Source: Escherichia phage EC.W2-6 | Direction: 5' to 3' (one strand) | Length of the DNA: 64,000 nucleotides | Sequence record: PP445229.1 | Shown: in pieces, positions 10,748-64,000 of the stretch | Position numbering within the stretch: position 1 is the first letter of the stretch | How the letters are laid out: each line of letters begins with the position of its first letter | Position numbers and translations under genes: made by a program | Notes under the pieces: model-generated | The model's input: the letters and a program-made list of their open reading frames with translations, nothing else | Database searches by the model: none | Told to the model about the DNA's origin: nothing

Positions 10748-10906
10748 ATGAAAGAGTATATTTACGTTGGTCAGCGGTGGTTCGGTGATGAATGGGAAGG
10801 TGGATACAGCGTTGTGAAAGCTTTTAAGTCTGAAGAAGATGCCAAGGCATGGGTCTTAAAAGATGACGTTGGCGAGAGAACTTACATTGAAGTAGAGGTG
10901 GAGTAG
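10748..10906 (+). CDS. small hypothetical protein
   Basis: 52-aa ORF, tightly packed between neighbours. Confidence 0.3.
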   Translation: MKEYIYVGQRWFGDEWEGGYSVVKAFKSEEDAKAWVLKDDVGERTYIEVEVE

Positions 10907-10907
10907 A

Positions 10908-11330: not shown

Positions 11331-11346
11331 TTTAAAGGAGTATAAA

Positions 11347-33050: not shown

Positions 33051-33093
33051 AAGTTCCTCCAAAACAATAAAAGGGGCACGAAGCCCCTTGTTG

Positions 33094-36000
33094 TTATCTC
33101 CGCCCGCCAACAGCAAACTCTATCGTTAAACCATTGATAGCAGCATTACTATTAACATCATTATCTATAACATTATAGAAAAGGTATGGATGGTTCAGTC
33201 TCACCGAGACATGCCTGTCAACACCGATCGTATATGTCTTAGATGTGTGTGGGTGTCCATATTCATTTGAGAATTGACTACCACCAGCTTCAAATATGTA
33301 AGTACCTGAACCAGTTGTCTGAGGTCGGAACCTGTTAATATGCTTCTGATTCCACTCATTCGTCACATTATCAAAATCTATACCAGTCCTCTCCAACCTC
33401 ATTTCCAGAGGCTTCTCTATAACAACATCATTTAGCCTGTCATAGAAGTAATCAAGAGCACCTACATCCACTTGATAGAATCCCTTCAAGAATGAACCTA
33501 CTATCGTAACCCTCTGTCTAAAGTTTGTTGCATCCTTTCTCCAAACGAGTTCTTTAATAGATGGGTCATCCCAAGTGATTTCTTGGAAGTCAGACCAGAT
33601 TGGACCTCTTTCTAAAACAGGAGGATCAACCAGACCAATACACTGAGCATATGGGATAGTACGGAATGACCAAGTATCAAACTCGTAGTTCCATACAGCA
33701 GCTTTAGTACAAGCGAAGCTTTCTTTTGGCTCTCCCGGACCTACGTACAGAACCCAAACTTCTTTCTTATCCTGATGCAAATGCACTCGAGTTGCTAGAG
33801 GGTTAACCAGACATACCTCGTTAATCAGCATATTCTTAACACGGTTAGATGCAATTGACTTCTTAGTTGCACCGTTGTGTAAGATTACATCGTTCTGAGT
33901 AACTACGAAGTGACTACCTTCTACTTCAACCACACACTCAGGAGCAAGGATACCAGAGTCGTTAAAGAGCTTCTTGAACATTAGAGGTTGGTACGTGTTA
34001 TTAGTCGGAGAACCAATATACGTTTCAAACTCTGTATAAACGAACAAGTAATCTTTAAGAGGTAGGATATCAATCAAGCTACCATTAGAATCTGCTAAGT
34101 CAATGTAACCAGCATACCCATTCTCTAGAGCCTGAGTCTGCCCTACGATGTTAGAAGCTAAGTCCGAAGACACAACTCGATCATAGGCAAAGTCATCCCA
34201 CAGTGTAGGAGCCTTGTTCTCATTGGCAAAGTTAGACCAACGAAGACGAAGCGGGTAGTTAGTGGTAACACCAGAAGCATTAGCCTCTCTCATATTCAGA
34301 GCAAAAAGACGGTTGTTAAAAGATCTTACTCTCTCACATTTCCAGTTAAACTTCTTGACTGAAGGGTTTCCATCACTATCCACCACTGTTTGCTCACCCC
34401 ACCCCGGAAGGTCTACAAAGTATTCTGATTCGAATTCTTTTACCTGAGGAGTTTCATAGTGAGTTGTAGCAACTGCACAGTTAGAGATAACAGCGTGATA
34501 CCAAGGGTAGTCATCAAAAGCATCGTAATCCTTCTGAGTCATCTGACTGACAGTACATGTTACGTTAATCTCTCCTTTACGAAGAGCAACCAGTTTGATA
34601 GATTTACCAGTGACTGAAGTTGTAGAAACATAACCAGTTTTATCAACAGACCACTGATAAGAGTACTCACCTTCTGGAGAAGCTGTGGCTGTAATGACAA
34701 CCTCTTCACCAACATCAAGAGAAGCGCTGACAATATCTAAGGTTACAGATGACAAAGGGGTTGCCAGTAAAGAAGCTCTTGCAAAACCTTCAATGTCATT
34801 CACGTTAGAGTAGTCATAGAAGTTATTACCTTCGTACATCCCTGACGTATCAATACCGGATGTAGGCTCAGCAAAATAAACCGTCTCTTCACTTTCAGGA
34901 GGAGTTACTACTTCTTCCTCTTGAGTTTCTACTGACTCTGACACAGGAGCAGCAAATGCCATAGAACTTGTTCTCATTGTTCTTCCAGCTAAATCTACAC
35001 GTACAGTACAGACAGCAACCCTGTTGCCTTCTTCAGTGGTAGCTGTAATCTCAGTAAAGCCAGCAAGTAAAGCGTTGATCGTCCCTTGTGTGCTAGTCCC
35101 TGATACTGTTGCAATATTTGGATTAGAAGAGGTCCAAGTAATATTTTGATTAGGGGCGTTAGCAGGAGAAAGGGTAGCAGTTAAGATATACTGAGAACCT
35201 CTACTCACAATAACATCTGACTGGCTTAAAGAGATACTATCAATCTGAGGGATGGAAACAACCTCACAAGAAGCAGTCTTAGTTCCGTTATCAGCAGTGA
35301 TTGTTACATTACCTTCTCCATTCGCTGTAATGACAGCAGTTAAAGAATTGGCGTTAGGGGTTACGGATACAATAGAAGCGTTATTGCTGGACCAAGTTAC
35401 AGGAGTCTTGCCAGTAACAGCCGTGAGAGTAGTAGTCCCTCCTTTACGAATTGTAACAGTGTCTTGACTCAAGAAGATGCCTGAATCACCGTCGATGATA
35501 TTAACAGCAATCTGAGCCACTACGGATTCGTTGGCAGTAGAGATAGTTACTACAAGATTACCTTCTTTCTCAAAAGATGTTAGAGTAGCAAGTTTAGAGT
35601 CACTAGGGTCTACCGTAATACTTCCATAGGATGAGTTACTAACCTCCCAAATAAGATCAGTATTGTTAGCATCAGCAGGGAGAAGAGAAACCTCTAGATT
35701 CTTGGTCTGATTGAAGTTCATTGAGATAGTTGATTCTTTAGGAACGATCTGAGAAACAACTGGATAAATCTTAATTGAGGCAGAAGCCTTCTTAGTGACT
35801 GTAGCAACCTTACGGCTAATATCAGTCAAGCTTTCATCTGTCAGTTTATATAACTTCTTATCCGTACCTACAACAAGAAAGCTATTACCTGCGCTATAAT
35901 AATCGAAAGGCATAGAAACGAAAGACAGAGGGGTTAAATCCTTATCTTCATCTACATAAGAAAGAGGGGCATTGCCCCCCGTCTTAAATACTCTCTGCTC

Positions 36001-36111
36001 AACAAATCGAGCATTTATAGCATTAGTGAAAGCATTAGGAGCTAAGTCTGTCGGAGCCTGATCAGCGATAATGCCTACAGCACCTAGTGACTTTATTGGA
36101 TACAGCGCCAT
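33094..36111 (-). CDS. large structural protein with Ig-like (Big_2-type) repeats
   Basis: 1005 aa with several Thr/Ser/Val-rich Ig-like repeat units; AAGGAGGA RBS. Confidence 0.6.
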   Translation of the reverse strand: MALYPIKSLGAVGIIADQAPTDLAPNAFTNAINARFVEQRVFKTGGNAPLSYVDEDKDLTPLSFVSMPFDYYSAGNSFLVVGTDKKLYKLTDESLTDISRKVATVTKKASASIKIYPVVSQIVPKESTISMNFNQTKNLEVSLLPADANNTDLIWEVSNSSYGSITVDPSDSKLATLTSFEKEGNLVVTISTANESVVAQIAVNIIDGDSGIFLSQDTVTIRKGGTTTLTAVTGKTPVTWSSNNASIVSVTPNANSLTAVITANGEGNVTITADNGTKTASCEVVSIPQIDSISLSQSDVIVSRGSQYILTATLSPANAPNQNITWTSSNPNIATVSGTSTQGTINALLAGFTEITATTEEGNRVAVCTVRVDLAGRTMRTSSMAFAAPVSESVETQEEEVVTPPESEETVYFAEPTSGIDTSGMYEGNNFYDYSNVNDIEGFARASLLATPLSSVTLDIVSASLDVGEEVVITATASPEGEYSYQWSVDKTGYVSTTSVTGKSIKLVALRKGEINVTCTVSQMTQKDYDAFDDYPWYHAVISNCAVATTHYETPQVKEFESEYFVDLPGWGEQTVVDSDGNPSVKKFNWKCERVRSFNNRLFALNMREANASGVTTNYPLRLRWSNFANENKAPTLWDDFAYDRVVSSDLASNIVGQTQALENGYAGYIDLADSNGSLIDILPLKDYLFVYTEFETYIGSPTNNTYQPLMFKKLFNDSGILAPECVVEVEGSHFVVTQNDVILHNGATKKSIASNRVKNMLINEVCLVNPLATRVHLHQDKKEVWVLYVGPGEPKESFACTKAAVWNYEFDTWSFRTIPYAQCIGLVDPPVLERGPIWSDFQEITWDDPSIKELVWRKDATNFRQRVTIVGSFLKGFYQVDVGALDYFYDRLNDVVIEKPLEMRLERTGIDFDNVTNEWNQKHINRFRPQTTGSGTYIFEAGGSQFSNEYGHPHTSKTYTIGVDRHVSVRLNHPYLFYNVIDNDVNSNAAINGLTIEFAVGGRR

Positions 36112-36120
36112 AATTCCTCC

Positions 36121-36924
36121 TTAGCTAATACGTCTCCAAATGTGAGCTGCTCTGAATGGTGGCAAAGTGTTAATAGGTTGACGAGAGATATCATCACGAC
36201 CAAGACTTACACTACCAGAGATTGTATGAGTGTGAGTATCATTATCAGTTCTCTGACTGTATCCACCACCCGGACTATACCAGTTTGGCGAGCTGTTATG
36301 ACCACTAGCATCTCCACGACCAAATACCATGTTGTGACTGTGAGTATTACTGGATAGAGAGAAGCTGGAGCCATTAACTGTCATCAAAGGTACGTTCTCA
36401 GTTCGAATAGTATTGAAGACACGACCACCAGTACCACCTGCTTGGAACTCAACTCTCTGAGCATTAGGGACAGAACCATCAGGGTTTACTACACCAGTAC
36501 CCATGATAACACCAGTCACTTTAGCCCAAGAGCCAAACCCTAAGGAGATGGAATCACCGGGGTTAATATCTTCTTCAGTGATGTAGTAAGAACCAATTCG
36601 ATAGAGCTTATTCTCCATCCAGTTCTTCATGAACGCTTCCATCTGGCCTTTAGTAACAACATCCTTGTCACCAGTTCCCGGAGTAACGTTCTTGATCATA
36701 AGACCACCAACATCCATTGAATCACCAGTAAACTTGAGCTTCTCTGACATAATCTTAAAGGTGTCAGAATCTATATCAACTGGTTCTGTAACATTGGGGA
36801 ATGTGTTCTGTAACGTTTGTTTAATGAGGCGGATTTGAGCCGCCCCTTCGTAGATGTAATCCCTGTCTCTAGGATAGAGCGGGTTTAAGTCGGTAATAAC
36901 TACCGCATTAGTTTCGATAGCCAA
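36121..36924 (-). CDS. virion protein (apparent TTG start)
   Basis: Reading frame begins with TTG preceded by GGAGGTG RBS; no ATG at this position. Confidence 0.45.
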   Translation of the reverse strand: MAIETNAVVITDLNPLYPRDRDYIYEGAAQIRLIKQTLQNTFPNVTEPVDIDSDTFKIMSEKLKFTGDSMDVGGLMIKNVTPGTGDKDVVTKGQMEAFMKNWMENKLYRIGSYYITEEDINPGDSISLGFGSWAKVTGVIMGTGVVNPDGSVPNAQRVEFQAGGTGGRVFNTIRTENVPLMTVNGSSFSLSSNTHSHNMVFGRGDASGHNSSPNWYSPGGGYSQRTDNDTHTHTISGSVSLGRDDISRQPINTLPPFRAAHIWRRIS

Positions 36925-36936
36925 AAGGCACCTCCA

Positions 36937-37428
36937 TTAATATTTACCTTCGGTGTAAAGATTAGCTTCTGCAACTCTTCTATTATGAAGACCCTGACTT
37001 CTCTGCTTCTCTCCCTTGACCGTTATTTTATCCCAACGAAGAAATTCGGAATAAACATCCCCCTTAACATCTCCATTGATTACCTTCCTTAACTTAGATG
37101 TGCTCAAAGCCCCACTGCCAACATTGAAGTTGAAAGAAGTGAGTGCATCAAACTCATGAACTAGTAAAGGAACCTTTATGTTCTTCTGAGTAGCACGAAC
37201 AGAGTCTTGTGTGTCTCTATCTAGCAGAGCTAGACAATCCTCTATAGAATACGTTAATCCTTGTCTAACCGGATAACCATTCATATCGCGCGTAGCCCCT
37301 ACACATATAGTCCAGATACCTGCGGAATCTTTATAAGCCTTGGTTCTCATACCCTCATGCTTCATGATGAATTCCATTCCAGCTGGGCTTAAGTTTAATT
37401 GTACAGGTGGCAATGCGGCGTTATCCAT
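36937..37428 (-). CDS. endolysin, GH24 (T4 lysozyme-like)
   Basis: MKHEGMRTKAYKDSAGIWTICVGAT matches the lysozyme E...D...T catalytic block. Confidence 0.8.
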   Translation of the reverse strand: MDNAALPPVQLNLSPAGMEFIMKHEGMRTKAYKDSAGIWTICVGATRDMNGYPVRQGLTYSIEDCLALLDRDTQDSVRATQKNIKVPLLVHEFDALTSFNFNVGSGALSTSKLRKVINGDVKGDVYSEFLRWDKITVKGEKQRSQGLHNRRVAEANLYTEGKY

Positions 37429-37457
37429 TTCTAACCTCCTTTTGTAGTCCCTTTAAA

Positions 37458-37676
37458 TTAAGGTAGTATCTTTCTCAGAGCGTTAGATTCAGCATCAGGG
37501 CAAATAACAACTAAGTTATTTTGAATTGTTCTCTGCTTGCATTGAGAGCTAAGCTTCTCTACTGGAGCAGGGACAGTTACTAATGGATGAACTGCGCCTA
37601 CAGGAACTGCGGTGGATACCACAACACCTGCGCCTAAACATATTAAACCATATGCAGCTTGTTTCATCATTTTCAT
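37458..37676 (-). CDS. small membrane/secreted protein (possible holin or lysis accessory)
   Basis: N-terminal hydrophobic segment AAYGLICLGAGVVVSTAV; adjacent to endolysin. Confidence 0.4.
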   Translation of the reverse strand: MKMMKQAAYGLICLGAGVVVSTAVPVGAVHPLVTVPAPVEKLSSQCKQRTIQNNLVVICPDAESNALRKILP

Positions 37677-37688
37677 TTGAGTGTCTCC

Positions 37689-37697
37689 TATATATTA
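37689..37697 (-). promoter_or_regulatory. candidate late promoter element (TAATATATA, minus strand)
   Basis: One mismatch to TAATGTATA; between terminator 37747-37766 and gene start 37676. Confidence 0.25.
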
Positions 37698-37746
37698 ACC
37701 TCTTGGGATATAGTAGTTTCATTACTTATTCACCAGTTTTACTCCT

Positions 37747-37766
37747 AAAAGCCCCCGAAGGGGCTT
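37747..37766 (-). terminator. intrinsic terminator after tail fibre gene
   Basis: GCCCC-CGAA-GGGGC hairpin; T-run on minus strand. Confidence 0.6.
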
Positions 37767-37769
37767 ATC

Positions 37770-39938
37770 TCACTTCTCTGCTAACTTCGCTTCTAGAACT
37801 TCAATACGCTTCAGCAGATCTTGAACAACCTGCATGGTATCTAAAAGCATTGGAGTTGCATCCAACTCTTTCTGTTCCTGCTCTACCCCATCGTTGTCAT
37901 GGAATTTACGAGTTTTAACATAAAGAGGTTCAACTTTCTCTGCCTGCTGTGCAATGATACCACGACGAGTTCTTCCTTGATTATCATTGTTGTACACAAA
38001 CGATTTGAAATCCAAACCTTTTATCGCACGAATTGCTTCATCAGGAGAGATATCTTGGATGTTATGTTTCAACTTTTCATCAGATACAGGATTCATAGCA
38101 AGAGTATAAGTTCCGGTTGAACTTGGCTGCCAAGTGTAGTAGTAAATCTCGTTCCTGTTTGGTCGGAGAGTTAAACGACAACCATATTTGTTGTCTTCAT
38201 CTCCCGAAACATGCCAACAGGAATCAGCAAAAGATCCAGCATCATTGTGAATCATCCCTACATGGGTAGTAGTTTTGTATCCACCTTGGGATGCTTGGGA
38301 AGCACTCAGTATAGAGTTAAAAGAGTAGTTAGCACCAACCCCTTGGTTGTCTATAGAAAACGTCCCTCTGCGACTTCCTGTTTCACTCCAAGACATCAAT
38401 GTTCTAGACCGAGCAACATATCTATCAGAGTTCAGGGTTCCAGAATCGTCAAAAGCTAATTGCTTGGTAACTCCTTTGGTTTTATTATAAACATTGATAA
38501 TCCCATAATAAGCTCCGTCGATATAAGCATCAGTTTGGAGCGTAGTAGAGGCTTCTACTTCTGAACCTATTTTATATTCAGAAACAACTGAACCGCTAGT
38601 TACCCTAGTTCCACCAGCAGGACGGTTTGCATCACTGTTAATAACTGACCAAGAGGTGTTAGCAGCAGTAAAACCTCCATGAGCACGAATAGTCCAAACA
38701 CCTACAAAGTTACGGGTCAGAATCTCCTCAGTGGAGCGACCATAAATAGGACTGGAACGCGATGCGTCAAAGTTTGTGGATATGTATTTACCTCCAGCCC
38801 CCACTGGAGCCACATCGTCTGTAGAGGTGATTGATTGAATTGCCCCGTTAGTCGCCACCTGCCCCGGAGCGGAGGCTAGTGTTACCATTGTGTGAGGGGA
38901 CGCATATGTGATATTCGGTGCAGCAGAATCAAACACTTGGCCATTTGCAGCAGAATTACCACCATCACCACGGCCATATAAAGCTCTCAGTGACCCCTCT
39001 TGGATACCATTTCGGTCAGGAACACGGAAAGTTGTTGTACCATTTCCGGTAGAATACCTACCCCTCTGATAGATATTAGACAACCAAAGAGAGTCTTCAA
39101 TTGGGGATAGCAGTTGTGCATAAGCCCATAAATCTGGGTAGTCAGCACGATTCAAAAGCTGCCCATCCGACACAACCTCAAAAGCTGGGATGAAAGCTCG
39201 ACTGTCACGTAAATGGAAATCACCAATACCAAAGTTAGAGATACCGCTCATCGTAGGACCACCAGAGCCACCACCACTGTTTCGAAGCTGTCTCAAAGTA
39301 ACCGCATCATAATCACCAACTGCATCAGGGACAGTTACTGGTTGAGTGAAAGTAACTTTCTGTGTGAGCTGTTTGATATCAGAGTTAATCCCTGTACGAG
39401 TAACACCTACCGTACGACCTTTAGAGTCTTTAACATAAGAACCAATTGCAGCAAAAGGCAAATCCTCAATCTCAGGACGGTAACGTTTAGAATAAACTGG
39501 ATACTTAGTTTCTACCCCAGAGTCATTCTGGTCAACAACCTGAAGACGACCAGCAGAATGAATCTCTACACCTTGAACTGAAGAGGCATAACTACCAATC
39601 TTGATTGAGTTATCAGTAGTAACTTTCATCATATCAACTGATTCTACACCATTAGCTCCAGTAGAACGGAATGGGGTATCATTAACAACCCAAGGGTCTT
39701 CTCGGAACAGCGCACCAGACATAATAGGTTGAATCGAATCCAGCACAAAATCTTTAGATGCACCCTCTGTTTTAGTTTGATAGGTAGCAGCTGCGTCGGT
39801 TTTCTGTAAATATTTTCCGGTGAGGTTAATAGCTCCAGTCTGTCCATCTACAGTAGAAACCCCAACAACAGCCGCGTCTCTGGTTACAACCACATGAGGC
39901 ATCATTATACCAGATTTGGGCATTAATTCTCTAGACAT
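37770..39938 (-). CDS. tail fibre/tailspike with C-terminal S74 intramolecular chaperone domain
   Basis: C-terminal SDEKLKHNIQDI...GLDFKSFVY matches the self-cleaving chaperone (S74) motif. Confidence 0.8.
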   Translation of the reverse strand: MSRELMPKSGIMMPHVVVTRDAAVVGVSTVDGQTGAINLTGKYLQKTDAAATYQTKTEGASKDFVLDSIQPIMSGALFREDPWVVNDTPFRSTGANGVESVDMMKVTTDNSIKIGSYASSVQGVEIHSAGRLQVVDQNDSGVETKYPVYSKRYRPEIEDLPFAAIGSYVKDSKGRTVGVTRTGINSDIKQLTQKVTFTQPVTVPDAVGDYDAVTLRQLRNSGGGSGGPTMSGISNFGIGDFHLRDSRAFIPAFEVVSDGQLLNRADYPDLWAYAQLLSPIEDSLWLSNIYQRGRYSTGNGTTTFRVPDRNGIQEGSLRALYGRGDGGNSAANGQVFDSAAPNITYASPHTMVTLASAPGQVATNGAIQSITSTDDVAPVGAGGKYISTNFDASRSSPIYGRSTEEILTRNFVGVWTIRAHGGFTAANTSWSVINSDANRPAGGTRVTSGSVVSEYKIGSEVEASTTLQTDAYIDGAYYGIINVYNKTKGVTKQLAFDDSGTLNSDRYVARSRTLMSWSETGSRRGTFSIDNQGVGANYSFNSILSASQASQGGYKTTTHVGMIHNDAGSFADSCWHVSGDEDNKYGCRLTLRPNRNEIYYYTWQPSSTGTYTLAMNPVSDEKLKHNIQDISPDEAIRAIKGLDFKSFVYNNDNQGRTRRGIIAQQAEKVEPLYVKTRKFHDNDGVEQEQKELDATPMLLDTMQVVQDLLKRIEVLEAKLAEK

Positions 39939-48651: not shown

Positions 48652-50193
48652 TTAGTAACTCTGATTCCATCTGCTTACGTTTGCCTCATACAGAGAAGCA
48701 CTTCCGTAGCTAACGTCATGCTTAGAGCGACCACGATGTGTAACAGAGCACGCTGAATAGCGCATTGCATCCATTAAGTCATCATGTTCTTTAATAATCT
48801 TACCAACCTTACGGTGATATCTAGCTTTCTCTTCGAATAGCTTAGCATTAGCGGCTGTGTTAAAGATTTTAAAGCGTCCACTCATCATTCTTTCTCGGAT
48901 ATCTGTGATTCCCGGTTCTACAAAGAAGTTCTTTTTACCATCCATTCCAATTTTGTTGTAGAAGGTCTCACTCTGTACGTTAACTCCTGCATTCTTATAG
49001 AATTGAGCAACAGATGAGCCACTACCTTTCTCAATATTGTCCGCATCGTGCGGTAGGATGACAGGAATCCACTGACCACGACCATTAATAGCTGGAGCAT
49101 GATACACTGGAGTAAAGCCACCTTCTTTATATGAGTCGTAAACATAGATAGTATCCGTGTTTGCATCGTAAGCTGTCCAAACAGCAGCAGTTGGGTGATC
49201 AATACCAATATCAATTGCACAGACACGTTTCCACGTATCAGGAATTTCGAATGGTTCACATTTAATTGTGTCATCCGATACATCATAAATCAAACCACTT
49301 CCTAACAATGGCATACCTTTCGAACGCATCTCTAACTGCCACGCTGGAATACCTTCAGTCATATCTTTTATATCTTGGTCAGTGATATGTCCACCTAGGT
49401 CTGCATGAGCATCCCACCAAGAAGCGTTCTGGAAATATAGAGAACCTGTGTTCTCATCCCCTTCGCCTTTCATAAATTTATCTACCAGTTCAGTTAAACC
49501 GTTCTCTGGTGTAGCTGTAATTGTAACTAGACCTTTAGTTGTGAGTGTACGTGTGACGCACTGTGCGAATATAGCCATAGACTCGTATGGATCTTCTTCG
49601 TCTAACCAAATGTAGTCAACTGTTGCACCCATCAATGTGTGTTCACCCTGTTGGGTTGAACGGAATTCTAATGTACTTAAACCGTCAAACTCCCCTCTCT
49701 CATTTTGATGTTTGATTTGTACGATTTGAAGTTTGTTACCATCTCGTTCTATCGTGTCAATGACGATAGCATCACGAGGAATGACACCTGTCCCCAATAA
49801 GTTTGTATCCTTTCCGATAGGTGTACCAAACAATTCCTTTTGCAATACTTTCCTTGTGGAATCCCCTGTAATACCAACTGCCCATGCTAAGATAGGTCTT
49901 TTAAATTTATATCCTGTCCACCAAGTTGGGTAGCGACCTGTGACATGACAAGCAAACTCGTATGCCTCGCTATAAGATTTACCAACACGGTTCGCTGCAC
50001 ACAAGAATCTAAAGCGATGCTTCAATCCTGCTGCATAAAATTTCTTTTGGAAGTCATACGCCTTGAAAGACAAAATCTTATTATACTTCCTCCATTGGTC
50101 ACGCTCTTTCAACATATTCAATAGTGCTTTCTTTTCCTCTACACTAAGATTGTTACCAGTTAGAGCTTCATAAATTTGTTTATCTAATGACAT
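48652..50193 (-). CDS. terminase large subunit
   Basis: Walker A-like AANRVGKS, Walker B IWLDEE, C-terminal nuclease-like region. Confidence 0.85.
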   Translation of the reverse strand: MSLDKQIYEALTGNNLSVEEKKALLNMLKERDQWRKYNKILSFKAYDFQKKFYAAGLKHRFRFLCAANRVGKSYSEAYEFACHVTGRYPTWWTGYKFKRPILAWAVGITGDSTRKVLQKELFGTPIGKDTNLLGTGVIPRDAIVIDTIERDGNKLQIVQIKHQNERGEFDGLSTLEFRSTQQGEHTLMGATVDYIWLDEEDPYESMAIFAQCVTRTLTTKGLVTITATPENGLTELVDKFMKGEGDENTGSLYFQNASWWDAHADLGGHITDQDIKDMTEGIPAWQLEMRSKGMPLLGSGLIYDVSDDTIKCEPFEIPDTWKRVCAIDIGIDHPTAAVWTAYDANTDTIYVYDSYKEGGFTPVYHAPAINGRGQWIPVILPHDADNIEKGSGSSVAQFYKNAGVNVQSETFYNKIGMDGKKNFFVEPGITDIRERMMSGRFKIFNTAANAKLFEEKARYHRKVGKIIKEHDDLMDAMRYSACSVTHRGRSKHDVSYGSASLYEANVSRWNQSY

Positions 50194-55089: not shown

Positions 55090-55117
55090 ATTGACATGAT
55101 TTTCCTTTATAGTAATA
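55090..55117 (+). promoter_or_regulatory. sigma70-type early promoter
   Basis: TTGACA, 16-nt spacer, TAATAT. Confidence 0.55.
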
Positions 55118-55296
55118 TGAATCCCGTAGTAAGCAGTAAGTAACAACAAGTAGTAAAAACTCCTCGATAGGTGATTAGCATCACGGTAAAAGGCTTCAAC
55201 GGGGAGCGGTAGGAATACCGACAGTAAGACGCACAATGAAGGTGCTACGCTCTTTAAAAATCAGGCTAGAAAGTGAAAATATTCTTAAAAAGAGTA

Positions 55297-55325
55297 TTGA
55301 CACCGAAAACAGCCTGATTCATAAT
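55297..55325 (+). promoter_or_regulatory. sigma70-type early promoter
   Basis: TTGACA, 17-nt spacer, CATAAT; near-duplicate of promoter at 55599. Confidence 0.55.
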
Positions 55326-55443
55326 AAGCACTCAGTCAGCGATGACTTAAAAAATCCCGCTCTTTAAAAACTTATCATCTTGCCTTTTCGCATAGATTCA
55401 CGCGAGATAAGGGAAAAGAATAAAAGAAGATGATAAAAAAGAG

Positions 55444-55472
55444 ATTGACAAGCTAACACGATGTGTTAAGCT
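55444..55472 (+). promoter_or_regulatory. possible sigma70-type promoter (weak -10)
   Basis: TTGACA with poor -10 (AAGCTG) at 17 nt. Confidence 0.25.
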
Positions 55473-55598
55473 GTAAATGCTACACCGCTCTTTAACAATA
55501 TGAATCATAAGTTAAGCATCACCGCTTAATCTTCAATCAAATAAAGCTGATTGATATATCCTCCCAATAGCGGGAACGACGAAAAAGATTAAAAAGTG

Positions 55599-55627
55599 GT
55601 TGACAGCGAAAACAACATGATTCATAA
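55599..55627 (+). promoter_or_regulatory. sigma70-type early promoter
   Basis: TTGACA, 17-nt spacer, CATAAT. Confidence 0.55.
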
Positions 55628-56549
55628 TGAGCACTCACTAAGCAAATCACCGCTTCAGTGAAAAGCGTAACAACGGCTAACAGTTGCATAGTGTGAGAAA
55701 GCACACTGATAGATTTACCGCTCTTTAATAATTTAAACATTCTCCTATATCGGTTGAATATGTTAGATGATAATAACCATCGGATAACATACCAGATAAA
55801 ACGGTGTAAGATTCTCTAAACTATCAGAGAAAACAATCTTATAATCCCTTGCTGGAAACGTCACCACTGATAAACGGATTCATTGAGTGTACGCAAAGAT
55901 TTAAGCTAATCGCCCACGGTTAAGGGTAGCGGCGGTCATCGCTAACAAGGCGCTACAGTGAAAGAAGTTAATCAGGGTAGGCAAGCCCGAAGAATTAACG
56001 CTCAATTGAGAGCGGCGGGGAGTGGTTAAAAAGTGGCAAATTGCTATTTAACAATAAGGTTTAGTGTGAACGTTTACGATGTGAATGATTTGAGGCCACT
56101 ATTGATGGCGTACATAGTCAGTTTATGTAGTAAACTTGCCGAAAGATATAAAACGTCAGAACATTAGACGGTCAATGACTCTTTCACAATAGCATCCCGT
56201 TGTGGGCGATGGCTAGTGATTGAGAGTTGATACAAAAGGATAGGCGAGAGCGAAAGCAAAGTAGACGATATTGCCGACGGTTACAATAAACGTAACTAAT
56301 TAGAGTCGGACGCACTGCCTTATTGTGATGATTGATCATCGCTATCAGGTCGGCTTCGTTTATAGCGACTAATTAAAGATACCAGATGAAACATCACGGA
56401 TAAGGGGGCGGCAAGGTTAACTCCTGATAAGACCGCCCCGCTTACCTATAACTACTTAACAACGAGTGGTTATAGTTAAGTTAATAGTGACTTAAACAAG
56501 CTCATAGAGAGCGGGGCAATAGCGCCCTTACAAGTGAAAGGTGAATATC

Positions 56550-58968: not shown

Positions 58969-59030
58969 CGTTGCTGTAAGTGCATTTGCGAGTGTATTTA
59001 TAGCAACGGTCATGTGTTGCTTTCAGGTTT

Positions 59031-59056
59031 GCCCCGGCTACGGCTGGGGCTTTTTT
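59031..59056 (+). terminator. intrinsic terminator
   Basis: GCCCCGGC-TACG-GCTGGGGC then TTTTTT. Confidence 0.7.
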
Positions 59057-59105
59057 ATGCCCGTAAAACAGGAGGTATCAAGTTCTGATAACAACGGCAC
59101 AGCTA

Positions 59106-59495
59106 ATGTTGACATTGACTATTTATTATGAGGCAGGGAATCAGCCAACCGCATGTAAGGCTTTAGTTGCGGATACCGTGATAAATAGAATGGCCCAACG
59201 AAAACTGACCGCTGAACAGGTGATAAGACAAAAGAACCAGTTTGAGTGGATTCCGGTACTATTAAAACAGGAGAAACCTTATAAACGTTATGTAAAGCTG
59301 ATTCGTGATAAAAATCCGATGACTAAGCAAGCCATTGGAGAAAGCGAGCGGCTGGCTAAACGTGCCCTTAAGAAGAATTATGTTCCGCTGTACAGTGGGA
59401 CTTACTTTCAGAGTAAGAGCGAAGGGGTGCCAAAATGGTATGCCAATCCTATGTATTGTGGTGATTTAGTATTTGATAATAGCTCTAGGGAATAA
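59106..59495 (+). CDS. SleB/CwlJ-like cell-wall hydrolase domain protein (tentative)
   Basis: YYEAGNQP...KALVADTVINR and ...KWYANPMY resemble Hydrolase_2 family blocks. Confidence 0.45.
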   Translation: MLTLTIYYEAGNQPTACKALVADTVINRMAQRKLTAEQVIRQKNQFEWIPVLLKQEKPYKRYVKLIRDKNPMTKQAIGESERLAKRALKKNYVPLYSGTYFQSKSEGVPKWYANPMYCGDLVFDNSSRE

Positions 59496-59694
59496 TCACT
59501 AGTGCCAGATTTGACAAACTAAATTCCTTTATAAACCAACCACTTAGTAAATTTATTGAAAAAGATGGTAGTATTCTGGGACTATGGGTAATGCTCTGTA
59601 TATAGACCCTTTGAAAATTTCTTAGAAAATAAGTTTACTAAATATAACTTACTTAAATAATATTACTTTTAATCTCTGATAAAGGGTAAATAAT

Positions 59695-59991
59695 ATGACT
59701 TTAGAAGTATATAAATTCCTTTTTGTAAGCTGTTTAACTATCAGCGTTCTAGGATTTATTGTTCTAAGAAACAAAGCAGCAAGCTGGGAAAGAATGTATA
59801 AATCCCTAGTCCGAGTGGATGAGATGTATAATGAGAAGGTTAAAGTAACACTCAACGATCTTATTATGCAAGTTGAGGACAGAAACAAGCGTCTTCAGAA
59901 CCTCAATCACGAAGTGTTACGCCTTGCTCGTGCTAATGAAGACTTGCGAATAGCTATTGCTAAGCAGCAGGAGATTAACAGTGATAATTGA
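59695..59991 (+). CDS. membrane-anchored coiled-coil protein
   Basis: N-terminal TM (FLFVSCLTISVLGFIVL) then heptad-rich region. Confidence 0.4.
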   Translation: MTLEVYKFLFVSCLTISVLGFIVLRNKAASWERMYKSLVRVDEMYNEKVKVTLNDLIMQVEDRNKRLQNLNHEVLRLARANEDLRIAIAKQQEINSDN

Positions 59992-59992
59992 T

Positions 59993-60217
59993 ATGAACAA
60001 CGCCCCAAAGGTTTTAACTCTTGGGGATTTAGAATCAGGTGATGTATTCCAGTTCCCTCTGGATGGGGAGAATTACTATATGTTATCTAGTCAGAAGTTT
60101 GGGACAACAGACAAGAGAAGTTATATCAATCTTTCCTGTGGCGTTATTGCAACGGATGAAGGTAATACAGTCATCAAGAAGGTCAGCAATGCTCGGCTTA
60201 CCAATAAGGTGGATTAA
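59993..60217 (+). CDS. small protein, GD(V/L)F paralog family member 1
   Basis: LTLGDLESGDVFQF; internal ATG fits family N-terminal length. Confidence 0.45.
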   Translation: MNNAPKVLTLGDLESGDVFQFPLDGENYYMLSSQKFGTTDKRSYINLSCGVIATDEGNTVIKKVSNARLTNKVD

Positions 60218-60219
60218 CA

Positions 60220-60456
60220 GTGAAAGTTAATATTAAATCCGATCGTACAATGCTTCGCTTAAACAACATGAAGCCGGGCGTTCTATTTGAGCGTAAAGAA
60301 TCCCTTTACATTAGAACCGACACATTGTACGCAGACAATTATGTCAACTGTGTTGATGTGGTAACTGGAAAGCTCATTCCTTTTAAACGGGATGAAGTCT
60401 GCCAAGTACGCAGCGATCTCCACATAACTAACATAGAGGCTAAAGATGAAGATTGA
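60220..60456 (+). CDS. small protein, paralog family member 2 (divergent)
   Basis: MKPGVLFERKESLYIRTDTLYADNYVNCVDVVTGKL. Confidence 0.45.
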   Translation: MKVNIKSDRTMLRLNNMKPGVLFERKESLYIRTDTLYADNYVNCVDVVTGKLIPFKRDEVCQVRSDLHITNIEAKDED

Positions 60457-60703
60457 TTTGAAGGTAAATGAACCATCTTTGTGTGTTGGTGATCTCAAAC
60501 TTGGAGATGTATTCCAAATCAGGGAAACACGAGCAGATTTCTACATGGTTGTTCAGCTATTTACCTCACAGATTGAAGAGACCAAGCCTTCTGATGGGGG
60601 TTGTGTCGTCCTTAGTCTGACAAATAAGCAAGTCCTTAAGCTTAGCTCGAAAAGCAAGGTTGTTCTTCTTCATGATGTTGTTATTACTAACAAGGGCAAG
60701 TAG
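60446..60703 (+). CDS. small protein, paralog family member 3
   Basis: LCVGDLKLGDVFQI. Confidence 0.45.
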   Translation: MKIDLKVNEPSLCVGDLKLGDVFQIRETRADFYMVVQLFTSQIEETKPSDGGCVVLSLTNKQVLKLSSKSKVVLLHDVVITNKGK

Positions 60704-60922
60704 ATGGAAATTAAAGTAGTTGATTATCCTAAATATGCAAATGCAGAAGATGTTAAAGGTGGTGATGTTTTCTCTTACGACAGACGTTTCTGGCTGATGT
60801 TAGAAGATAAAACTCCCGATGGTTTATGTAAGGCCGCCAATCTGAACAGCGGTTCTGTTGAAGTCTTCGGTCTATCAACCACTGTTATGCCACGCCCTGA
60901 TCTGTGTTTATCCCAAAAGTAA
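60704..60922 (+). CDS. small protein, paralog family member 4
   Basis: GGDVFSYDRRFWLMLEDKTPDGLCKAANLNSGSVEVFG. Confidence 0.45.
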   Translation: MEIKVVDYPKYANAEDVKGGDVFSYDRRFWLMLEDKTPDGLCKAANLNSGSVEVFGLSTTVMPRPDLCLSQK

Positions 60923-61280
60923 CATCGACTTATAGCCCTTGTGTTTATCAGAGGGCTATGTGAGGGTGTTCCTCATTAACTTATTAATTCAGGCATATGC
61001 CACACCGCTAGGGAGAGCTTGCTCGAACATCCGGTGTTAGACTAAAACCTGTTCAATTTCGGTAGACTTTCCACTACGTAGGGGTACGTATTGGTTTGGG
61101 ATTCAGGAGATCTCCTAGGGGTAGGAGGTCTTCACCAGTTGGGATAAGAGATAGCTCTAGAACCTGAACTCTTAGGCAGAGAGGGTCGGCAATGAGTACG
61201 AGGTCAGAATTAGCCTCCTGACTAGGGCTATCCCTTATATCAACTGGCAATAATGCCTCCACTAATAAAGAGAGAACGTT

Positions 61281-61421
61281 ATGAAGAAGTCAACCAAGAG
61301 TATGAACCGTCCTGAGCGTATGGATGCAGTAGCAAATGGTGCACTGAAGATCGAGTCTGCCATGCTGCGTCTGATGGGTAACATCCGTAAGCGTCAAGGT
61401 GGTTGGGTTTACAATAACTGA
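61281..61421 (+). CDS. small basic protein (46 aa)
   Basis: ORF with strongly biased codons after a 350-nt structured non-coding stretch; terminator-like hairpin follows. Confidence 0.3.
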   Translation: MKKSTKSMNRPERMDAVANGALKIESAMLRLMGNIRKRQGGWVYNN

Positions 61422-61634
61422 TTTAATAAAAGGCTGCCTAGAAATAGGTGGCCTTTGTTGTTTTAATTAAGGGTCAACTCTTACTTAAACTAACAACGGG
61501 TGTATGGTATTGACAGGCATCGGCACGGAACTTGTTACCAACAAGGTTGGCGAATCAAGACCTCTGTGAAGCTCCGAAGAAATCAAGGCAGGTTCGACTC
61601 CTGCTCCCCGACCAAATCAGCAAGAGGTGCTTAT

Positions 61635-61988
61635 ATGAGAAGCATGGTTAAAGATTGGGTAACTAAATCAGGTCTTCGTGCTGTGATTATGCACATGAAC
61701 GACTCCCACTTTTGTGGATATGTAGAGCTACCAGACAGCTTAAAACATAAAAACTTCACCGGATATAACGGGAATGAAGAAGTTTGTTATGTAAGTGTTC
61801 ATGGTGGTGTCACATGGCAAGATACCCTTGAAGAGATGGATGGTTTAGATACAATCGGATTTGATTGTGCCCATGCAGGTGATAAGACACGGTTCAACCC
61901 TAACGGGGTTCCAAGAACAGAAACGTTCTGCATCAACGAATGCGAACAAATGGCTGAACAACTAAGAGATCTCGAATCAAATGTCTAA
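61635..61988 (+). CDS. hypothetical protein
   Basis: Internal ATG with GAGGTG RBS preferred over listed 61500 start. Confidence 0.4.
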   Translation: MRSMVKDWVTKSGLRAVIMHMNDSHFCGYVELPDSLKHKNFTGYNGNEEVCYVSVHGGVTWQDTLEEMDGLDTIGFDCAHAGDKTRFNPNGVPRTETFCINECEQMAEQLRDLESNV

Positions 61989-62157
61989 GCAAACAATCAA
62001 ACATACGCAAGCTGGTTACTCTTATATCAACTCTCCTTGTTGTGGTGCTCGTGTGAATCTGGTTAAGGAAGAGGTTCGTATCGTTCAGCGTGGCGCTACT
62101 GTTGTTCGTTCATGCTGTGTCTGTGGTAATGACATTTTTATCAAAGGTAAAGTATGA
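61981..62157 (+). CDS. small zinc-ribbon protein
   Basis: 58 aa, CCGAR...CCVCG; overlaps both neighbours. Confidence 0.3.
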   Translation: MSKQTIKHTQAGYSYINSPCCGARVNLVKEEVRIVQRGATVVRSCCVCGNDIFIKGKV

Positions 62158-62405
62158 AAAACTTCCAAGCTGCACCAATAACTAAAGTGATCGAAGTTGA
62201 CGGTGTAATGATGACTGTTCCTCTGAACACTCGTTACATTGCAATTGACAAGATGGGCTATGTATGGGCTTGGAAGATCAAGCCTAGTTATAACGCACTG
62301 TTTGATGAGTTTGTTTGTACTGGTACTTACAGTCCTACATTCTTGGGTTTATTTGGAGAGTTTGATGGTAAGCATAAAATCATCACTCTCCCTGCTTGTG
62401 CTTGA
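62154..62405 (+). CDS. hypothetical protein
   Basis: ORF, ATGA overlap. Confidence 0.4.
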   Translation: MKNFQAAPITKVIEVDGVMMTVPLNTRYIAIDKMGYVWAWKIKPSYNALFDEFVCTGTYSPTFLGLFGEFDGKHKIITLPACA

Positions 62406-62412
62406 GGTTATT

Positions 62413-62577
62413 ATGTTCAAGTGGTTTAAACGTTTCTTCCATCTCCATGATTGGGAGACAATAAAAGAAATTCGTTTACACATATATAATGAGATTGGTC
62501 AAATAGAAGACACAGGTACTCGTTATATACTTCGATGTAAAACATGTGGTCATATCACCAAGCGAGATATGATCTAA
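62413..62577 (+). CDS. small zinc-binding-like protein
   Basis: 54 aa with GAGGT RBS; C-terminal CKTCGH. Confidence 0.35.
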   Translation: MFKWFKRFFHLHDWETIKEIRLHIYNEIGQIEDTGTRYILRCKTCGHITKRDMI

Positions 62578-62585
62578 ATAATTCT

Positions 62586-62661
62586 GCGCTCTTAGCTCAA
62601 TGGATAGAGCAGTAGCCTTCTAAGCTATTGGTTACAGGTTCGAGTCCTGTAGGGCGCACCA
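62586..62661 (+). tRNA. tRNA-Arg (anticodon UCU), CCA encoded
   Basis: Cloverleaf by hand: 7-bp acceptor GCGCTCT/AGGGCGC, D-arm GCTC/GAGC, anticodon stem GTAGC/GCTAT with loop CTTCTAA, T-arm ACAGG-TTCGAGT-CCTGT, then ACCA. Confidence 0.85.
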
Positions 62662-62801
62662 CATTTAGGGCTAGTATGGGTGCGGCACCAGAGTTAGTGT
62701 ATCCCTGTTGAGGCAAGTGCTTTTATAACAGTGGGAATTACTTTCTTAGTGAGCTTCTGGTTCGATTCCAGATAGTCCACCAAATCTAATAGGAGGTAAT
62801 T

Positions 62802-63101
62802 ATGAGTTGGGGTGGTGTAATATCCTTAATCTGTATCTTCCTTGTCTGTATAGCCCTTACAGGCTGCGTACAGAGTCGTCCTGATGGATGGTGTGCAGTA
62901 GCAGTGGAAGGTGTTTGTGTTTCTCGCTGGCATAAAGGTAAGAAGGTTCCTTCTGGTGAAATTGATATGCGCTGGAACGGAGCAACCTGCTCTAATGCTA
63001 ACCCTTCTATCAACGAAGAGAAATCTACACCGGATAATGTTGTGATTGATACAGCGTTGTGGTGTGGTGGCTCTGTAACAACAACCGGTAAGGAGTGGTA
63101 A
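62802..63101 (+). CDS. lipoprotein (Cys-rich)
   Basis: Signal peptide with lipobox IALTGC; TAGGAGGT RBS. Confidence 0.5.
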   Translation: MSWGGVISLICIFLVCIALTGCVQSRPDGWCAVAVEGVCVSRWHKGKKVPSGEIDMRWNGATCSNANPSINEEKSTPDNVVIDTALWCGGSVTTTGKEW

Positions 63102-63102
63102 T

Positions 63103-63351
63103 ATGACAGCTCATTATTGGAATACAAAGAAGCTTCTTGAGGAGATGGCTGGGGGTAGTAGAGTACAGCTAATCTCTATGCTTCGAATGGATGCTCGCTC
63201 TTTACGCTTTCAAGTGAAGATTGGTAACTTCAGCGATGGTCTTTATTATACCTTGAAGGAAAGAATTAAGAAAACTCACTTCATCATGTACGGAATCAAA
63301 CCGAGAACGTACGTTAACTACATGTATTGGGATACATGCTACGATAGTTGA
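63103..63351 (+). CDS. hypothetical protein
   Basis: ORF abutting previous stop. Confidence 0.4.
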   Translation: MTAHYWNTKKLLEEMAGGSRVQLISMLRMDARSLRFQVKIGNFSDGLYYTLKERIKKTHFIMYGIKPRTYVNYMYWDTCYDS

Positions 63352-63358
63352 GGCTATT

Positions 63359-63580
63359 ATGAAATTAGATTCTAAACAATCACTTAAAACTGTTGAACTA
63401 TCCACCCTTCCAAATGGAAGTATTTTTGGTCATGATAAACACTTCTGGATTAAAACAGACTACTTGAACGATGGGTATATCACCTGTGTCAATCTTTGGA
63501 ATGGCTCAGTGGATGGCTACCGCCCTAGTGCAAAAGTAGTCCCTCAGCCTGATGCAAAAGCTATAGGTTTGGTCTACTAA
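63359..63580 (+). CDS. small protein, paralog family member 5
   Basis: HDKHFWIKTDYLNDGYITCVNLWNGSVDGY parallels 60704..60922. Confidence 0.45.
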   Translation: MKLDSKQSLKTVELSTLPNGSIFGHDKHFWIKTDYLNDGYITCVNLWNGSVDGYRPSAKVVPQPDAKAIGLVY

Positions 63581-63589
63581 GGAGTTCAT

Positions 63590-63763
63590 ATGAGCTGTTA
63601 TGGTGGAGGTGAAGTTTATGATGACGATGATATGGAATCTAATGGGGAATGCCCTGATTGCGGGTGTGAGACGTTTGATGGTGTATCAGTATATCCTGCC
63701 TGTAGTTACTCACCAGTGATCTGTAAAACATGTGGTGATCAGCCATGTGACCAATCTTGTTAA
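63590..63763 (+). CDS. small Cys-rich acidic protein
   Basis: 57 aa with four CxxC-like pairs; AAGGAG RBS. Confidence 0.3.
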   Translation: MSCYGGGEVYDDDDMESNGECPDCGCETFDGVSVYPACSYSPVICKTCGDQPCDQSC

Positions 63764-63772
63764 GAGGTTAAT

Positions 63773-64000
63773 ATGGACGGAGAAATGGTTTCATATATAG
63801 CCATGACCTACTTGGTAGGTTGGTGGGTTGCAGTGTTGGTGGTGAAGTGGTGCTTCAAGAGAGGGAAGTTTAAAACTTTCCTACATACTCCTTGGGGGAA
63901 CCCTGACGAAACTGCAATGTGGGTTGTGATCTTCTTCTGGCCTGTTATCTTATTATTCTTTATCATCTTCCCAATCCTACTACTATTTGACACTGTATTA
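63773..64000 (+). CDS. membrane protein, 3'-truncated at window edge
   Basis: GAGGT RBS; two hydrophobic helices; open to window end. Confidence 0.4.
   Translation, partial: MDGEMVSYIAMTYLVGWWVAVLVVKWCFKRGKFKTFLHTPWGNPDETAMWVVIFFWPVILLFFIIFPILLLFDTVL

What the first reader, a model, noticed from the sequence alone, without database searches (positions are those of the whole stretch)
59993..60922. Tandem array of diverged small paralogs (GDVF family) in the early region, with a fifth copy at 63359-63580
Four consecutive 73-85-aa ORFs plus one more 2.4 kb downstream share a core (GD(V/L)F ... Y/FW ... N.SG.V) but are otherwise highly diverged. Tandem, rapidly diversifying small early genes are typical of host-takeover or anti-defence arsenals. 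No function is recognisable.
Basis: seen in the sequence. Interest (0 to 1): 0.65.

Follow-up and report, generated by a model that had tools for sequence, protein, structure and literature searches.

The report
Expanded small beta-barrel phage early-gene family
Five small early genes of this phiEco32-like E. coli phage are true diverged copies of one gene, each encoding a tiny SH3-like beta-barrel of unknown function from a large uncharacterised phage family, so they are good candidates for host-manipulation screens but no new mechanism is shown.

Summary
The window is a Kuravirus (phiEco32/SU10-like) phage, 100% identical to Escherichia phage EC.W14-3. The five ORFs exist and are homologous. 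Shuffle-tested pairwise scores link them transitively. An HMM built only from 54 non-Kuravirus relatives picks exactly these five out of 1005 window ORFs.

Corrections and extensions:
- Copy A most likely starts at GTG 59981, not ATG 59993.
- Three more copies lie just beyond the window end, giving at least 8 per genome.
- Related phages carry 3-11 copies, and the tandem array itself holds 0-5.

AlphaFold models of copies D and C give the same five-stranded SH3-like barrel. The nearest solved folds are EF-P/eIF5A domain I and uL2, but only weakly, and profile comparison finds no sequence relationship to EF-P.

The family is large: about 817 clusters at 50% identity, including N4 gp21 and PaP3 ORF65. 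It is absent from Pfam and NCBIfam, and its PHROGs are all "unknown function".

Orthologues are under purifying selection (dN/dS 0.02-0.3), with cassette-like replacement at some slots. "Rapidly diversifying" is therefore only partly right. The most likely role, non-enzymatic binding modules for host takeover or anti-defence, is inferred, not shown.

A conserved, covarying ~358-nt RNA-like element directly downstream may be the more novel feature.

The parts
59981..60217 (+). Orthologue of SU10 gp114. Absent from phiEco32 and EP335. SkaterBoy and 1-6af carry a 36%-identical variant in this slot.
   Evidence: ORF. EC.W14-3 annotation maps to 59981-60217. GGAG at 59970-59973; the start overlaps the upstream gene by 11 nt. 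HMM E = 2.4e-13 with a profile lacking all Kuravirus sequences. Ortholog data.
60220..60456 (+). Copy B (78 aa, GTG start). Orthologue of phiEco32 gp115 and SU10 gp113.
   Evidence: AAGGTGG lies 7 nt upstream. HMM E = 1.4e-15. 90-97% identical across Kuravirus, dN/dS 0.06-0.17.
60446..60703 (+). Copy C (85 aa), with a longer beta2-beta3 loop. Orthologue of phiEco32 gp114 and SU10 gp112. Overlaps B by 11 nt.
   Evidence: GAGG lies 6 nt upstream. HMM E = 7e-12. AF2 model pLDDT 78 with the same five strands. SkaterBoy, phiEco32 and EP335 carry 55-58%-identical alleles.
60704..60922 (+). Copy D (72 aa). Orthologue of phiEco32 gp113 and SU10 gp111. Its start abuts the stop of C (TAGATG).
   Evidence: HMM E = 3.9e-17. 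AF2 pLDDT 86.3, five-stranded barrel. 96-99% identical in most relatives, dN/dS 0.02-0.07.
63359..63580 (+). Copy E (73 aa). Orthologue of phiEco32 gp104 and SU10 gp102. Found in eight of the nine genomes examined (all but ECBP2), including LAMP, which lacks the array.
   Evidence: GAGG lies 5 nt upstream. HMM E = 1e-19. dN/dS 0.00-0.10. Present in LAMP.
55091..55628 (+). Cluster of three sigma70-like promoters (two are TTGACA-17-CATAAT) that probably drive the early operon containing the array. Assignment is inferred.
   Evidence: The SU10 paper places three sigma70 promoters in the spacer between genes 120 and 121, upstream of the early genes.

Best explanation
The five ORFs are functional paralogues. 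With three more copies just past the window end, the genome carries at least eight. Each encodes one ~72-85-aa domain that folds into a five-stranded SH3-like (KOW/Tudor-type) beta-barrel. They sit in the sigma70-driven early operon of a Kuravirus phage, and their overlapping or abutting start and stop codons suggest translational coupling.

The family-wide conserved positions are a glycine and a phenylalanine at strand 1, the aromatic pair in strand 2, the N-L-x-x-G turn and a valine in strand 5. These look like fold-maintaining residues. There is no conserved polar or catalytic constellation. The beta2-beta3 hairpin, the termini and the surface differ between copies.

The most likely working model is therefore a set of non-enzymatic binding modules. 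Each copy would bind a different host (or phage) macromolecule early in infection, as accessory host-takeover or anti-defence factors. The set would be built by tandem duplication and reshuffled by cassette exchange.

What is shown: paralogy, coding selection, the predicted fold, copy-number variation and the breadth of the family.

What is inferred: early expression, the binding function and the targets.
For: - Homology.
- Real genes: dN/dS 0.02-0.3 for orthologues. Shine-Dalgarno motifs and 11-nt or 0-nt junctions between genes.
- No catalytic signature: across 62 diverse members only G20, F23, G50 and V61 are nearly invariant.
- Accessory character: the array holds 0 copies in LAMP, 2 in XT73, 3 in phiEco32, EP335 and ECBP2, 4 in this phage, SU10 and 1-6af, and 5 in SkaterBoy. 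Totals are 3-11 per genome.
- Early class.
- Not virion proteins: none is among the 34 proteins found by SU10 proteomics.
- Breadth: 817 representative clusters at E <= 1e-3 (a few are probably false, e.g. P0114). N4 gp21, PaP3 ORF65 and many BFVD phage proteins are members.
- Open niche: Gordonclarkvirinae resist restriction-modification (RM) systems without any known inhibitor or DNA modification pathway (PMC11990801).
Against: - No binding partner, phenotype or expression measurement exists for any member. Literature searches found none.
- The SH3-like fold is generic and does not predict a target.
- Fold matches to solved structures are weak: no Foldseek PDB hit at E <= 1e-3, and TM about 0.5.
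- Strong purifying selection, and the near-universal presence of copy E, fit a housekeeping role in the phage cycle as well as they fit an arms-race role.
- No match in PADLOC.
Confidence: 0.5

Rival explanations
1. The copies are nucleic-acid- or ribosome-directed KOW/EF-P-domain-I-like modules. They would bind RNA, DNA or the translation apparatus (or EF-P-modifying enzymes) rather than act as protein inhibitors of defence systems.
For: - The Foldseek PDB list is headed almost entirely by EF-P/eIF5A domain I (its best-scoring hits, E from 4e-3, 15-24% identity), with uL2 further down.
- One member gives a weak EFP_N Pfam hit at E = 0.056.
- A Bacteroidota chromosomal protein fuses a SprT-like metalloprotease domain to five tandem copies of this domain, each with a strongly basic beta2-beta3 hairpin (KKGEKKRTRY).
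Against: - hhalign of the 62-sequence family profile against E. coli EF-P domain I gives 0.15% probability.
- The family has no conserved Lys/Arg at the hairpin tip that defines EF-P/eIF5A.
- The window copies are not basic: pI 4.9-8.6, net charge -2.5 to +1.7.
Confidence: 0.2
2. The paralogues work together as subunits of one hetero-oligomeric assembly, rather than as independent binders with separate targets.
For: - At least 12 of the best 150 representatives are natural two-domain fusions of this domain ('Rosetta-stone' pattern).
- Copies are adjacent and translationally coupled here, and also in an unrelated 42.6-kb phage contig.
Against: - Copy number varies freely. The array is absent in LAMP, and N4 (in its first 22 kb) and PaP3 carry a single copy.
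- Slots are swapped independently of each other.
- No multimer prediction could be run.
Confidence: 0.12
3. The copies serve the phage's own programme (for example regulating phage transcription, replication or assembly) rather than manipulating the host.
For: - Strong purifying selection, with copy E found in eight of the nine genomes examined (absent only from ECBP2).
- In an unrelated phage contig, two copies sit directly after a sigma-factor gene.
Against: - Most copies are dispensable in some relatives.
- None was detected in the SU10 particle preparation.
- The known phiEco32 transcription factor gp79 is helical and unrelated.
Confidence: 0.13
4. The similarity is chance or low complexity, or the ORFs are non-functional remnants.
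For: - Four of the ten pairwise comparisons are not individually significant.
- Only two residues are invariant among the five copies.
Against: - Profile E-values of 1e-19 to 7e-12 from a model that contains no Kuravirus sequence, with a clean gap to the next ORF.
- dN/dS far below 1.
- Confident and concordant AF2 models.
Confidence: 0.02

Closest known systems
PHROG families 6570, 7832, 9955, 16423 (also 8365, 7431, 10911), all 'unknown function'
   Same: The window copies and their distant relatives hit these profiles. Best E-values run from 1e-48 to 4e-6 for the four named families; the three in brackets hit only weakly (9e-4 to 9e-3). Single proteins cross-hit several of the families, so together they form one superfamily.
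   Different: PHROGs splits the family into several clusters and assigns no function. The paralogous expansion in Gordonclarkvirinae is not recorded there.
Phage N4 gp21 (74 aa) and Pseudomonas phage PaP3 ORF65 (79 aa)
   Same: Both are sequence-level members: E = 1.5e-15 (N4 gp21) and 5.5e-7 (PaP3 ORF65) with the family HMM. Both are also structural matches in BFVD. They are the same size, single-domain, and lie in non-structural gene blocks.
   Different: Each is a single copy in its genome (for N4, only the first 22 kb was scanned). No function is published for either in the library searched.
EF-P / eIF5A N-terminal KOW-like domain and uL2 C-terminal domain (translation-protein SH3-like fold)
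   Different: No profile-level sequence similarity. No conserved modified Lys/Arg at the hairpin tip. No following OB domains. Not basic. The scores are barely above those for Tudor, CarD and PWWP domains.
RNA-polymerase-binding Tudor/SH3-like modules (CarD/TRCF-RID, UvrD/PcrA C-terminal domain, NusG/Spt5 KOW)
   Different: Similarity is at fold level only. No sequence relationship was tested or found, and there is no evidence that the phage proteins bind RNA polymerase.
phiEco32 gp79 (small early/middle RNAP-binding transcription factor of the same phage group)
   Same: A small, non-enzymatic protein of the same phage group that reprogrammes the host by binding. It is a precedent for the proposed mode of action.
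   Different: gp79 is alpha-helical and unrelated in sequence. It is a single-copy gene.

Membership tests
Small phage beta-barrel superfamily (PHROGs 6570/7832/9955/16423) | Significant match to the family profiles | tested here: met
   Four of the five copies hit phrog_7832. The best hits are 1.4e-48 (16423), 1.6e-36 (9955) and 7.7e-33 (6570). An HMM free of Kuravirus sequences gives E = 1e-19 to 7e-12 for all five.
Small phage beta-barrel superfamily (PHROGs 6570/7832/9955/16423) | Single ~70-85-aa domain with the pattern MKI..., G-D-V-F, aromatic pair, N-L-x-T-G, V | tested here: met
   Alignments A1-A3. G20, F23, G50 and V61 are at least 90% conserved across 62 members.
SH3-like small beta-barrel fold (KOW/Tudor/translation-protein SH3-like) | Five antiparallel strands forming a small barrel | tested here: met
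KOW motif family (Pfam KOW / NusG-type) | Match to the KOW sequence profile | tested here: not met
   No KOW hit for any of the 62 members at E <= 0.1.
EF-P / eIF5A domain I | Sequence-profile similarity to the EF-P N-terminal domain | tested here: not met
   hhalign of A3 against E. coli EF-P residues 1-76 gives probability 0.15%. The EF-P sequence was checked against PDB 3a5z/6enj. Only one of 62 members has a weak EFP_N hit, E = 0.056.
EF-P / eIF5A domain I | Conserved modifiable Lys/Arg at the tip of the beta3-beta4 hairpin (by fold topology this is the hairpin called beta2-beta3 in the phage family), followed by OB-fold domains | tested here: not met
   The hairpin is the most variable segment of the family and has no conserved basic residue. 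The proteins end after the barrel.
DNA-mimic anti-restriction proteins (Ocr/ArdA type) | Strongly acidic surface with a large net negative charge | tested here: not met
   Net charge at pH 7 is -2.5 to +1.7 and pI is 4.9-9.2 for copies A-H.
Known anti-defence or defence protein families | Match to a curated model | tested here: not met
   No PADLOC hit for 62 members. PADLOC models defence systems rather than anti-defence proteins; no dedicated anti-defence library was available. Nothing in Pfam or NCBIfam.
Early (sigma70-dependent) gene class of phiEco32-like phages | Located downstream of the sigma70 promoters, with no gp36-type promoter (tAATGTAtA) in between, and transcribed early | tested here: inconclusive
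   Position and promoters fit. The only near-consensus gp36 motif on the + strand nearby is GAATGTATA at 59792, which has one mismatch and lies inside a gene. The phiEco32 macroarray data themselves could not be read.

The most novel reading that the evidence does not exclude
The eight paralogues are a diversified panel of SH3-like 'binder' proteins. Each would neutralise a different host immunity or housekeeping target. Together they could account for the so far unexplained broad resistance of Gordonclarkvirinae to restriction-modification and most other tested defence systems. If so, the widespread family (N4 gp21, PaP3 ORF65, hundreds of metagenomic clusters) would be a new general scaffold for phage counter-defence. 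A sharper variant is that the proteins mimic EF-P/eIF5A domain I and target the translation apparatus.
Probability: 0.12. Interest if true: 0.75.

Novelty: new member of a known kind. Interest (0 to 1): 0.4.

Why it matters
If the copies are host-directed binders, this is a compact, naturally diversified scaffold with many ready-made variants to screen for inhibitors of bacterial defence or essential processes. Each genome carries 8-11 copies and there are hundreds of clusters elsewhere.

It would also give a first handle on the almost entirely unannotated early region of Gordonclarkvirinae. These are therapeutically used, broad-host-range phages whose resistance to restriction is unexplained (PMC11990801).

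Practically, the analysis merges several PHROGs into one superfamily. It also gives names to N4 gp21, PaP3 ORF65 and phiEco32 gp91, gp95-98, gp104, gp109 and gp113-115.

As it stands, this is an uncharacterised domain family with a generic fold. That is useful, but not surprising to a phage biologist.

Tried and rejected
- **Pfam, NCBIfam and PADLOC scans** of the five copies and of 62 diverse members gave no credible hit.
- **PDB search by sequence profile** gave nothing below E = 0.18.
- **EF-P homology** was rejected at the sequence level by hhalign.
- **gp79-like RNAP binder** was rejected because gp79 is helical.
- **DNA mimicry** was rejected on charge.
- **Virion component** is unsupported by the SU10 proteomics.
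- **The search for related loci with the broad alignment** failed because no stretch was conserved enough.
- **The afdb50 fold library** was unavailable.
- **tblastn of distant members against the phage collection** found only Kuravirus-type hits or none.
- **The word-indexed protein search** reached only Kuravirus-like relatives. Only the exhaustive HMMER scan showed the wider family.
- **P0114** (1315 aa, eight matched stretches) looks like a false positive from cadherin-like repeats.
- **Literature searches** for N4 gp21, Kuravirus anti-defence and phiEco32 early-protein toxicity found nothing on this family.
- **A sixth copy in the window:** the weak hit at 49409-49612 (E = 0.023, small HMM) did not recur with better profiles.

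Full report
**Identity of the window**

Bases 59000-64000 are 100% identical to Escherichia phages EC.W14-3 and EC.W8-1. They are 91-96% identical to SU10, YF01, SkaterBoy_Bas90 and other Kuravirus phages of the Gordonclarkvirinae (phiEco32-like, C3-morphotype podoviruses). GC skew shows that the 52-64 kb block is transcribed rightwards.

**Checking the observation**

The ORF listing returns all five ORFs. Every public record examined annotates them as hypothetical proteins.

- Pairwise Smith-Waterman scores against 1000 shuffles are clearly significant for D-E (z = 15.5), B-E (11.2) and A-C (7.1). They are moderately significant for A-D, C-D and B-C (z = 4.0-4.4), and not significant for the other four pairs. 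The five are therefore connected transitively.
- A stricter test used an HMM built only from 54 non-Kuravirus metagenomic relatives. It recovers exactly the five ORFs out of 1005 window ORFs of at least 30 aa (E = 1e-19 to 7e-12). The next ORF scores E = 0.54.
- One caveat applies. Those 54 sequences were originally retrieved with a profile seeded from Kuravirus copies, so the test is leave-out rather than fully independent.

Gene starts and junctions:

- Copy A is best started at GTG 59981, as in the EC.W14-3 annotation. GGAG lies 7 nt upstream, and the resulting N-terminus MIIDM matches the family's MKIDL.
- Every copy has a Shine-Dalgarno-like motif 5-7 nt upstream.
- The junctions are tight. 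The upstream gene overlaps A by 11 nt. A and B are 2 nt apart. B and C overlap by 11 nt. C and D abut (TAGATG).

**More copies than reported**

With a broader 62-sequence profile, the same phage shows three further members just beyond the window end. In EC.W14-3 locus coordinates these are 10865-11110, 11113-11361 and 11826-12068, where window base 64000 corresponds to locus position 10001. That makes at least eight paralogues (A-H). H is significantly similar to all the others (z = 4.7-15) and acts as a hub.

Copies per early region in relatives:

| Phage | Copies |
|---|---|
| LAMP | 3 |
| ECBP2 | 6 |
| 1-6af | 8 |
| XT73 | 8 |
| SU10 | 9 |
| phiEco32 | 9 (gp115, 114, 113, 109, 104, 98-95) |
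| SkaterBoy | 10 |
| EP335 | 11 |

The tandem array itself lies between a conserved 98-aa gene and a conserved non-coding element. It holds 0 copies in LAMP, 2 in XT73, 3 in phiEco32, EP335 and ECBP2, 4 in this phage, SU10 and 1-6af, and 5 in SkaterBoy.

**Selection**

Nei-Gojobori estimates against five relatives give dN/dS of 0.02-0.3 for every copy wherever dS is measurable. Copies B, D and E are 90-100% identical within Kuravirus. These are real genes under purifying selection.

Some slots carry very different variants in other genomes:

- A: 36% identity in SkaterBoy and 1-6af, and absent from phiEco32 and EP335.
- C: 55-58% identity in SkaterBoy, phiEco32 and EP335.
- D: 69% identity in 1-6af.
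- H: about 30% identity in three genomes.

The pattern is old paralogues, conserved orthologues, and gain, loss and replacement of cassettes. It is not continuous rapid divergence.

**Fold**

AlphaFold2 with family alignments gives confident models for D (pLDDT 86.3, pTM 0.72) and C (pLDDT 78.2). Both have five beta-strands in the same order. C's extra residues form a long, low-confidence beta2-beta3 loop.

- The Foldseek PDB list is headed almost entirely by EF-P/eIF5A domain I. However, no hit reaches E <= 1e-3 and TM is about 0.5.
- hhalign of the family profile against E. coli EF-P domain I finds no relationship, with probability 0.15%.

The fold class is secure as a prediction. A specific relationship to EF-P is not.

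**The wider family**

An exhaustive HMMER scan of 1.84 billion representatives finds 817 clusters at E <= 1e-3.

- Nearly all are 67-85-aa single-domain proteins.
- At least a dozen of the top 150 are two-domain fusions.
- One is a Bacteroidota chromosomal protein with a SprT-like metalloprotease domain followed by five basic repeats of this domain.
- One 1315-aa hit looks spurious.
- N4 gp21 (E = 1.5e-15) and PaP3 ORF65 (E = 5.5e-7) are members.
- BFVD adds proteins from Klebsiella, Proteus, Erwinia, Serratia, Aeromonas, Vibrio and Yersinia phages.
- In an unrelated 42.6-kb phage contig, two copies sit side by side after a sigma-factor gene.

Pfam, NCBIfam, PADLOC and PDB sequence search have no model for the family. 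PHROGs splits it into at least six 'unknown function' families that cross-hit each other.

**Expression class**

The SU10 paper assigns CDS 69-125 to the early class, with three sigma70 promoters between genes 120 and 121. The window copies A-D are the orthologues of SU10 gp114-111. The YF01 paper says the same for the right-hand block.

The window has strong sigma70-like sites at 55091, 55297 and 55600. No exact gp36-type promoter lies in the early block. None of the family was among the 34 proteins detected in a crude SU10 particle preparation. Early expression is therefore well grounded by position, but I did not see direct measurements.

**Interpretation**

Across 62 diverse members only four positions are at least 90% conserved: G20, F23, G50 and V61. 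By their placement in strands and turns they look structural, although this is an inference. Charge is unremarkable, with pI 4.9-9.2. There is no catalytic signature.

The most economical reading is a non-enzymatic binding scaffold whose surface has been diversified. It would be deployed early in infection and would be largely dispensable, as expected for accessory host-takeover or anti-defence factors. [quoted passage not shown] That leaves room for such factors but proves nothing.

Three rivals remain open:

- A nucleic-acid- or ribosome-directed KOW/EF-P-like role.
- A hetero-oligomeric assembly, suggested by the fusions.
- A phage-internal regulatory role.

**Side finding**

The 358 nt immediately after copy D (60923-61280) are about 96% identical across six phages from two genera (Kuravirus and Nieuwekanaalvirus), although the neighbouring genes have dS of 0.2-1.5. 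The element occurs in 98 phage records, all from E. coli or Shigella phages with Gordonclarkvirinae-sized genomes, and only in 76-77-kb contigs of IMG/VR.

- It folds better than shuffled sequences (z = -3.2).
- A nine-sequence alignment supports 87 base pairs. Twelve of them show compensatory changes, against 4.1 +/- 1.3 in shuffles and at most 4 in register-shifted controls.
- Shorter variants lack the tip of one long hairpin.
- Many G-U pairs fit the + (early transcript) strand.
- One helix pairs CUUUC with the GAGAG Shine-Dalgarno region of the next ORF, at 61281.
- Rfam has no match, even at E <= 10.

This looks like an undescribed structured RNA, either a leader or a non-coding RNA. It may deserve more attention than the paralogues.

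**Verdict**

The thing itself is a new, expanded member set of an uncharacterised but widespread small SH3-like phage protein family. Interest is moderate.

Noticed in passing
window 60923-61280 (+), directly after copy D: A conserved non-coding element of about 358 nt, 96% identical across six phages from two genera, while the flanking genes have dS of 0.2-1.5. The predicted structure has 87 pairs, 12 with compensatory changes (shuffles 4.1 +/- 1.3; shifted registers at most 4). G-U pairs favour the + strand. One helix sequesters the Shine-Dalgarno region of the 46-aa ORF at 61281. Some phages carry a short form of about 300 nt. No Rfam match even at E <= 10. Found only in Gordonclarkvirinae-type phages. 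Candidate novel structured RNA, either a leader or a non-coding RNA.
   Followed up: partly
window 59695-59991 (+): The 98-aa gene just upstream of the array is annotated 'DNA helicase' in many records. Its sequence shows an N-terminal hydrophobic segment and a coiled-coil-like C-terminal half, and it is far too small to be a helicase. This is probably a propagated misannotation. It is conserved even in LAMP, which lacks the array.
   Followed up: no
L004 3583-5019 / L005 8001-9437 (Bacteroidota chromosome, P0120): A cellular 478-aa protein fuses a SprT-like metalloprotease domain to five tandem, strongly basic repeats of the same small barrel domain. The repeat region has no Pfam model. This suggests a nucleic-acid-binding version of the domain in bacteria.
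   Followed up: partly
window 63590-63763 (+), just after copy E: A 57-aa, very acidic, Cys-rich ORF (CPDCGC...CKTCGDQPCDQSC) that looks like a small zinc-binding protein. It is under strong purifying selection (dN/dS 0.00-0.04 at dS 0.8-2.3) across the five relatives compared.
   Followed up: no
L017 (PaP3) 32292-38613 vs L010 (phiEco32) 1931-10101: PaP3 (Bruynoghevirus) and phiEco32-like phages share the same early-region enzyme cluster: amidoligase, COOH-NH2 ligase, glutamine amidotransferase, an S6-glutaminyl-transferase-like ATP-grasp enzyme and gamma-glutamyl cyclotransferase. In both, a run of small ORFs lies transcriptionally upstream of the cluster, and in each phage that run includes a member of the barrel family.
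   Followed up: no
window 62586-62661 (+): tRNA-Arg (anticodon TCT) embedded among the small early genes and conserved across the group.
   Followed up: no
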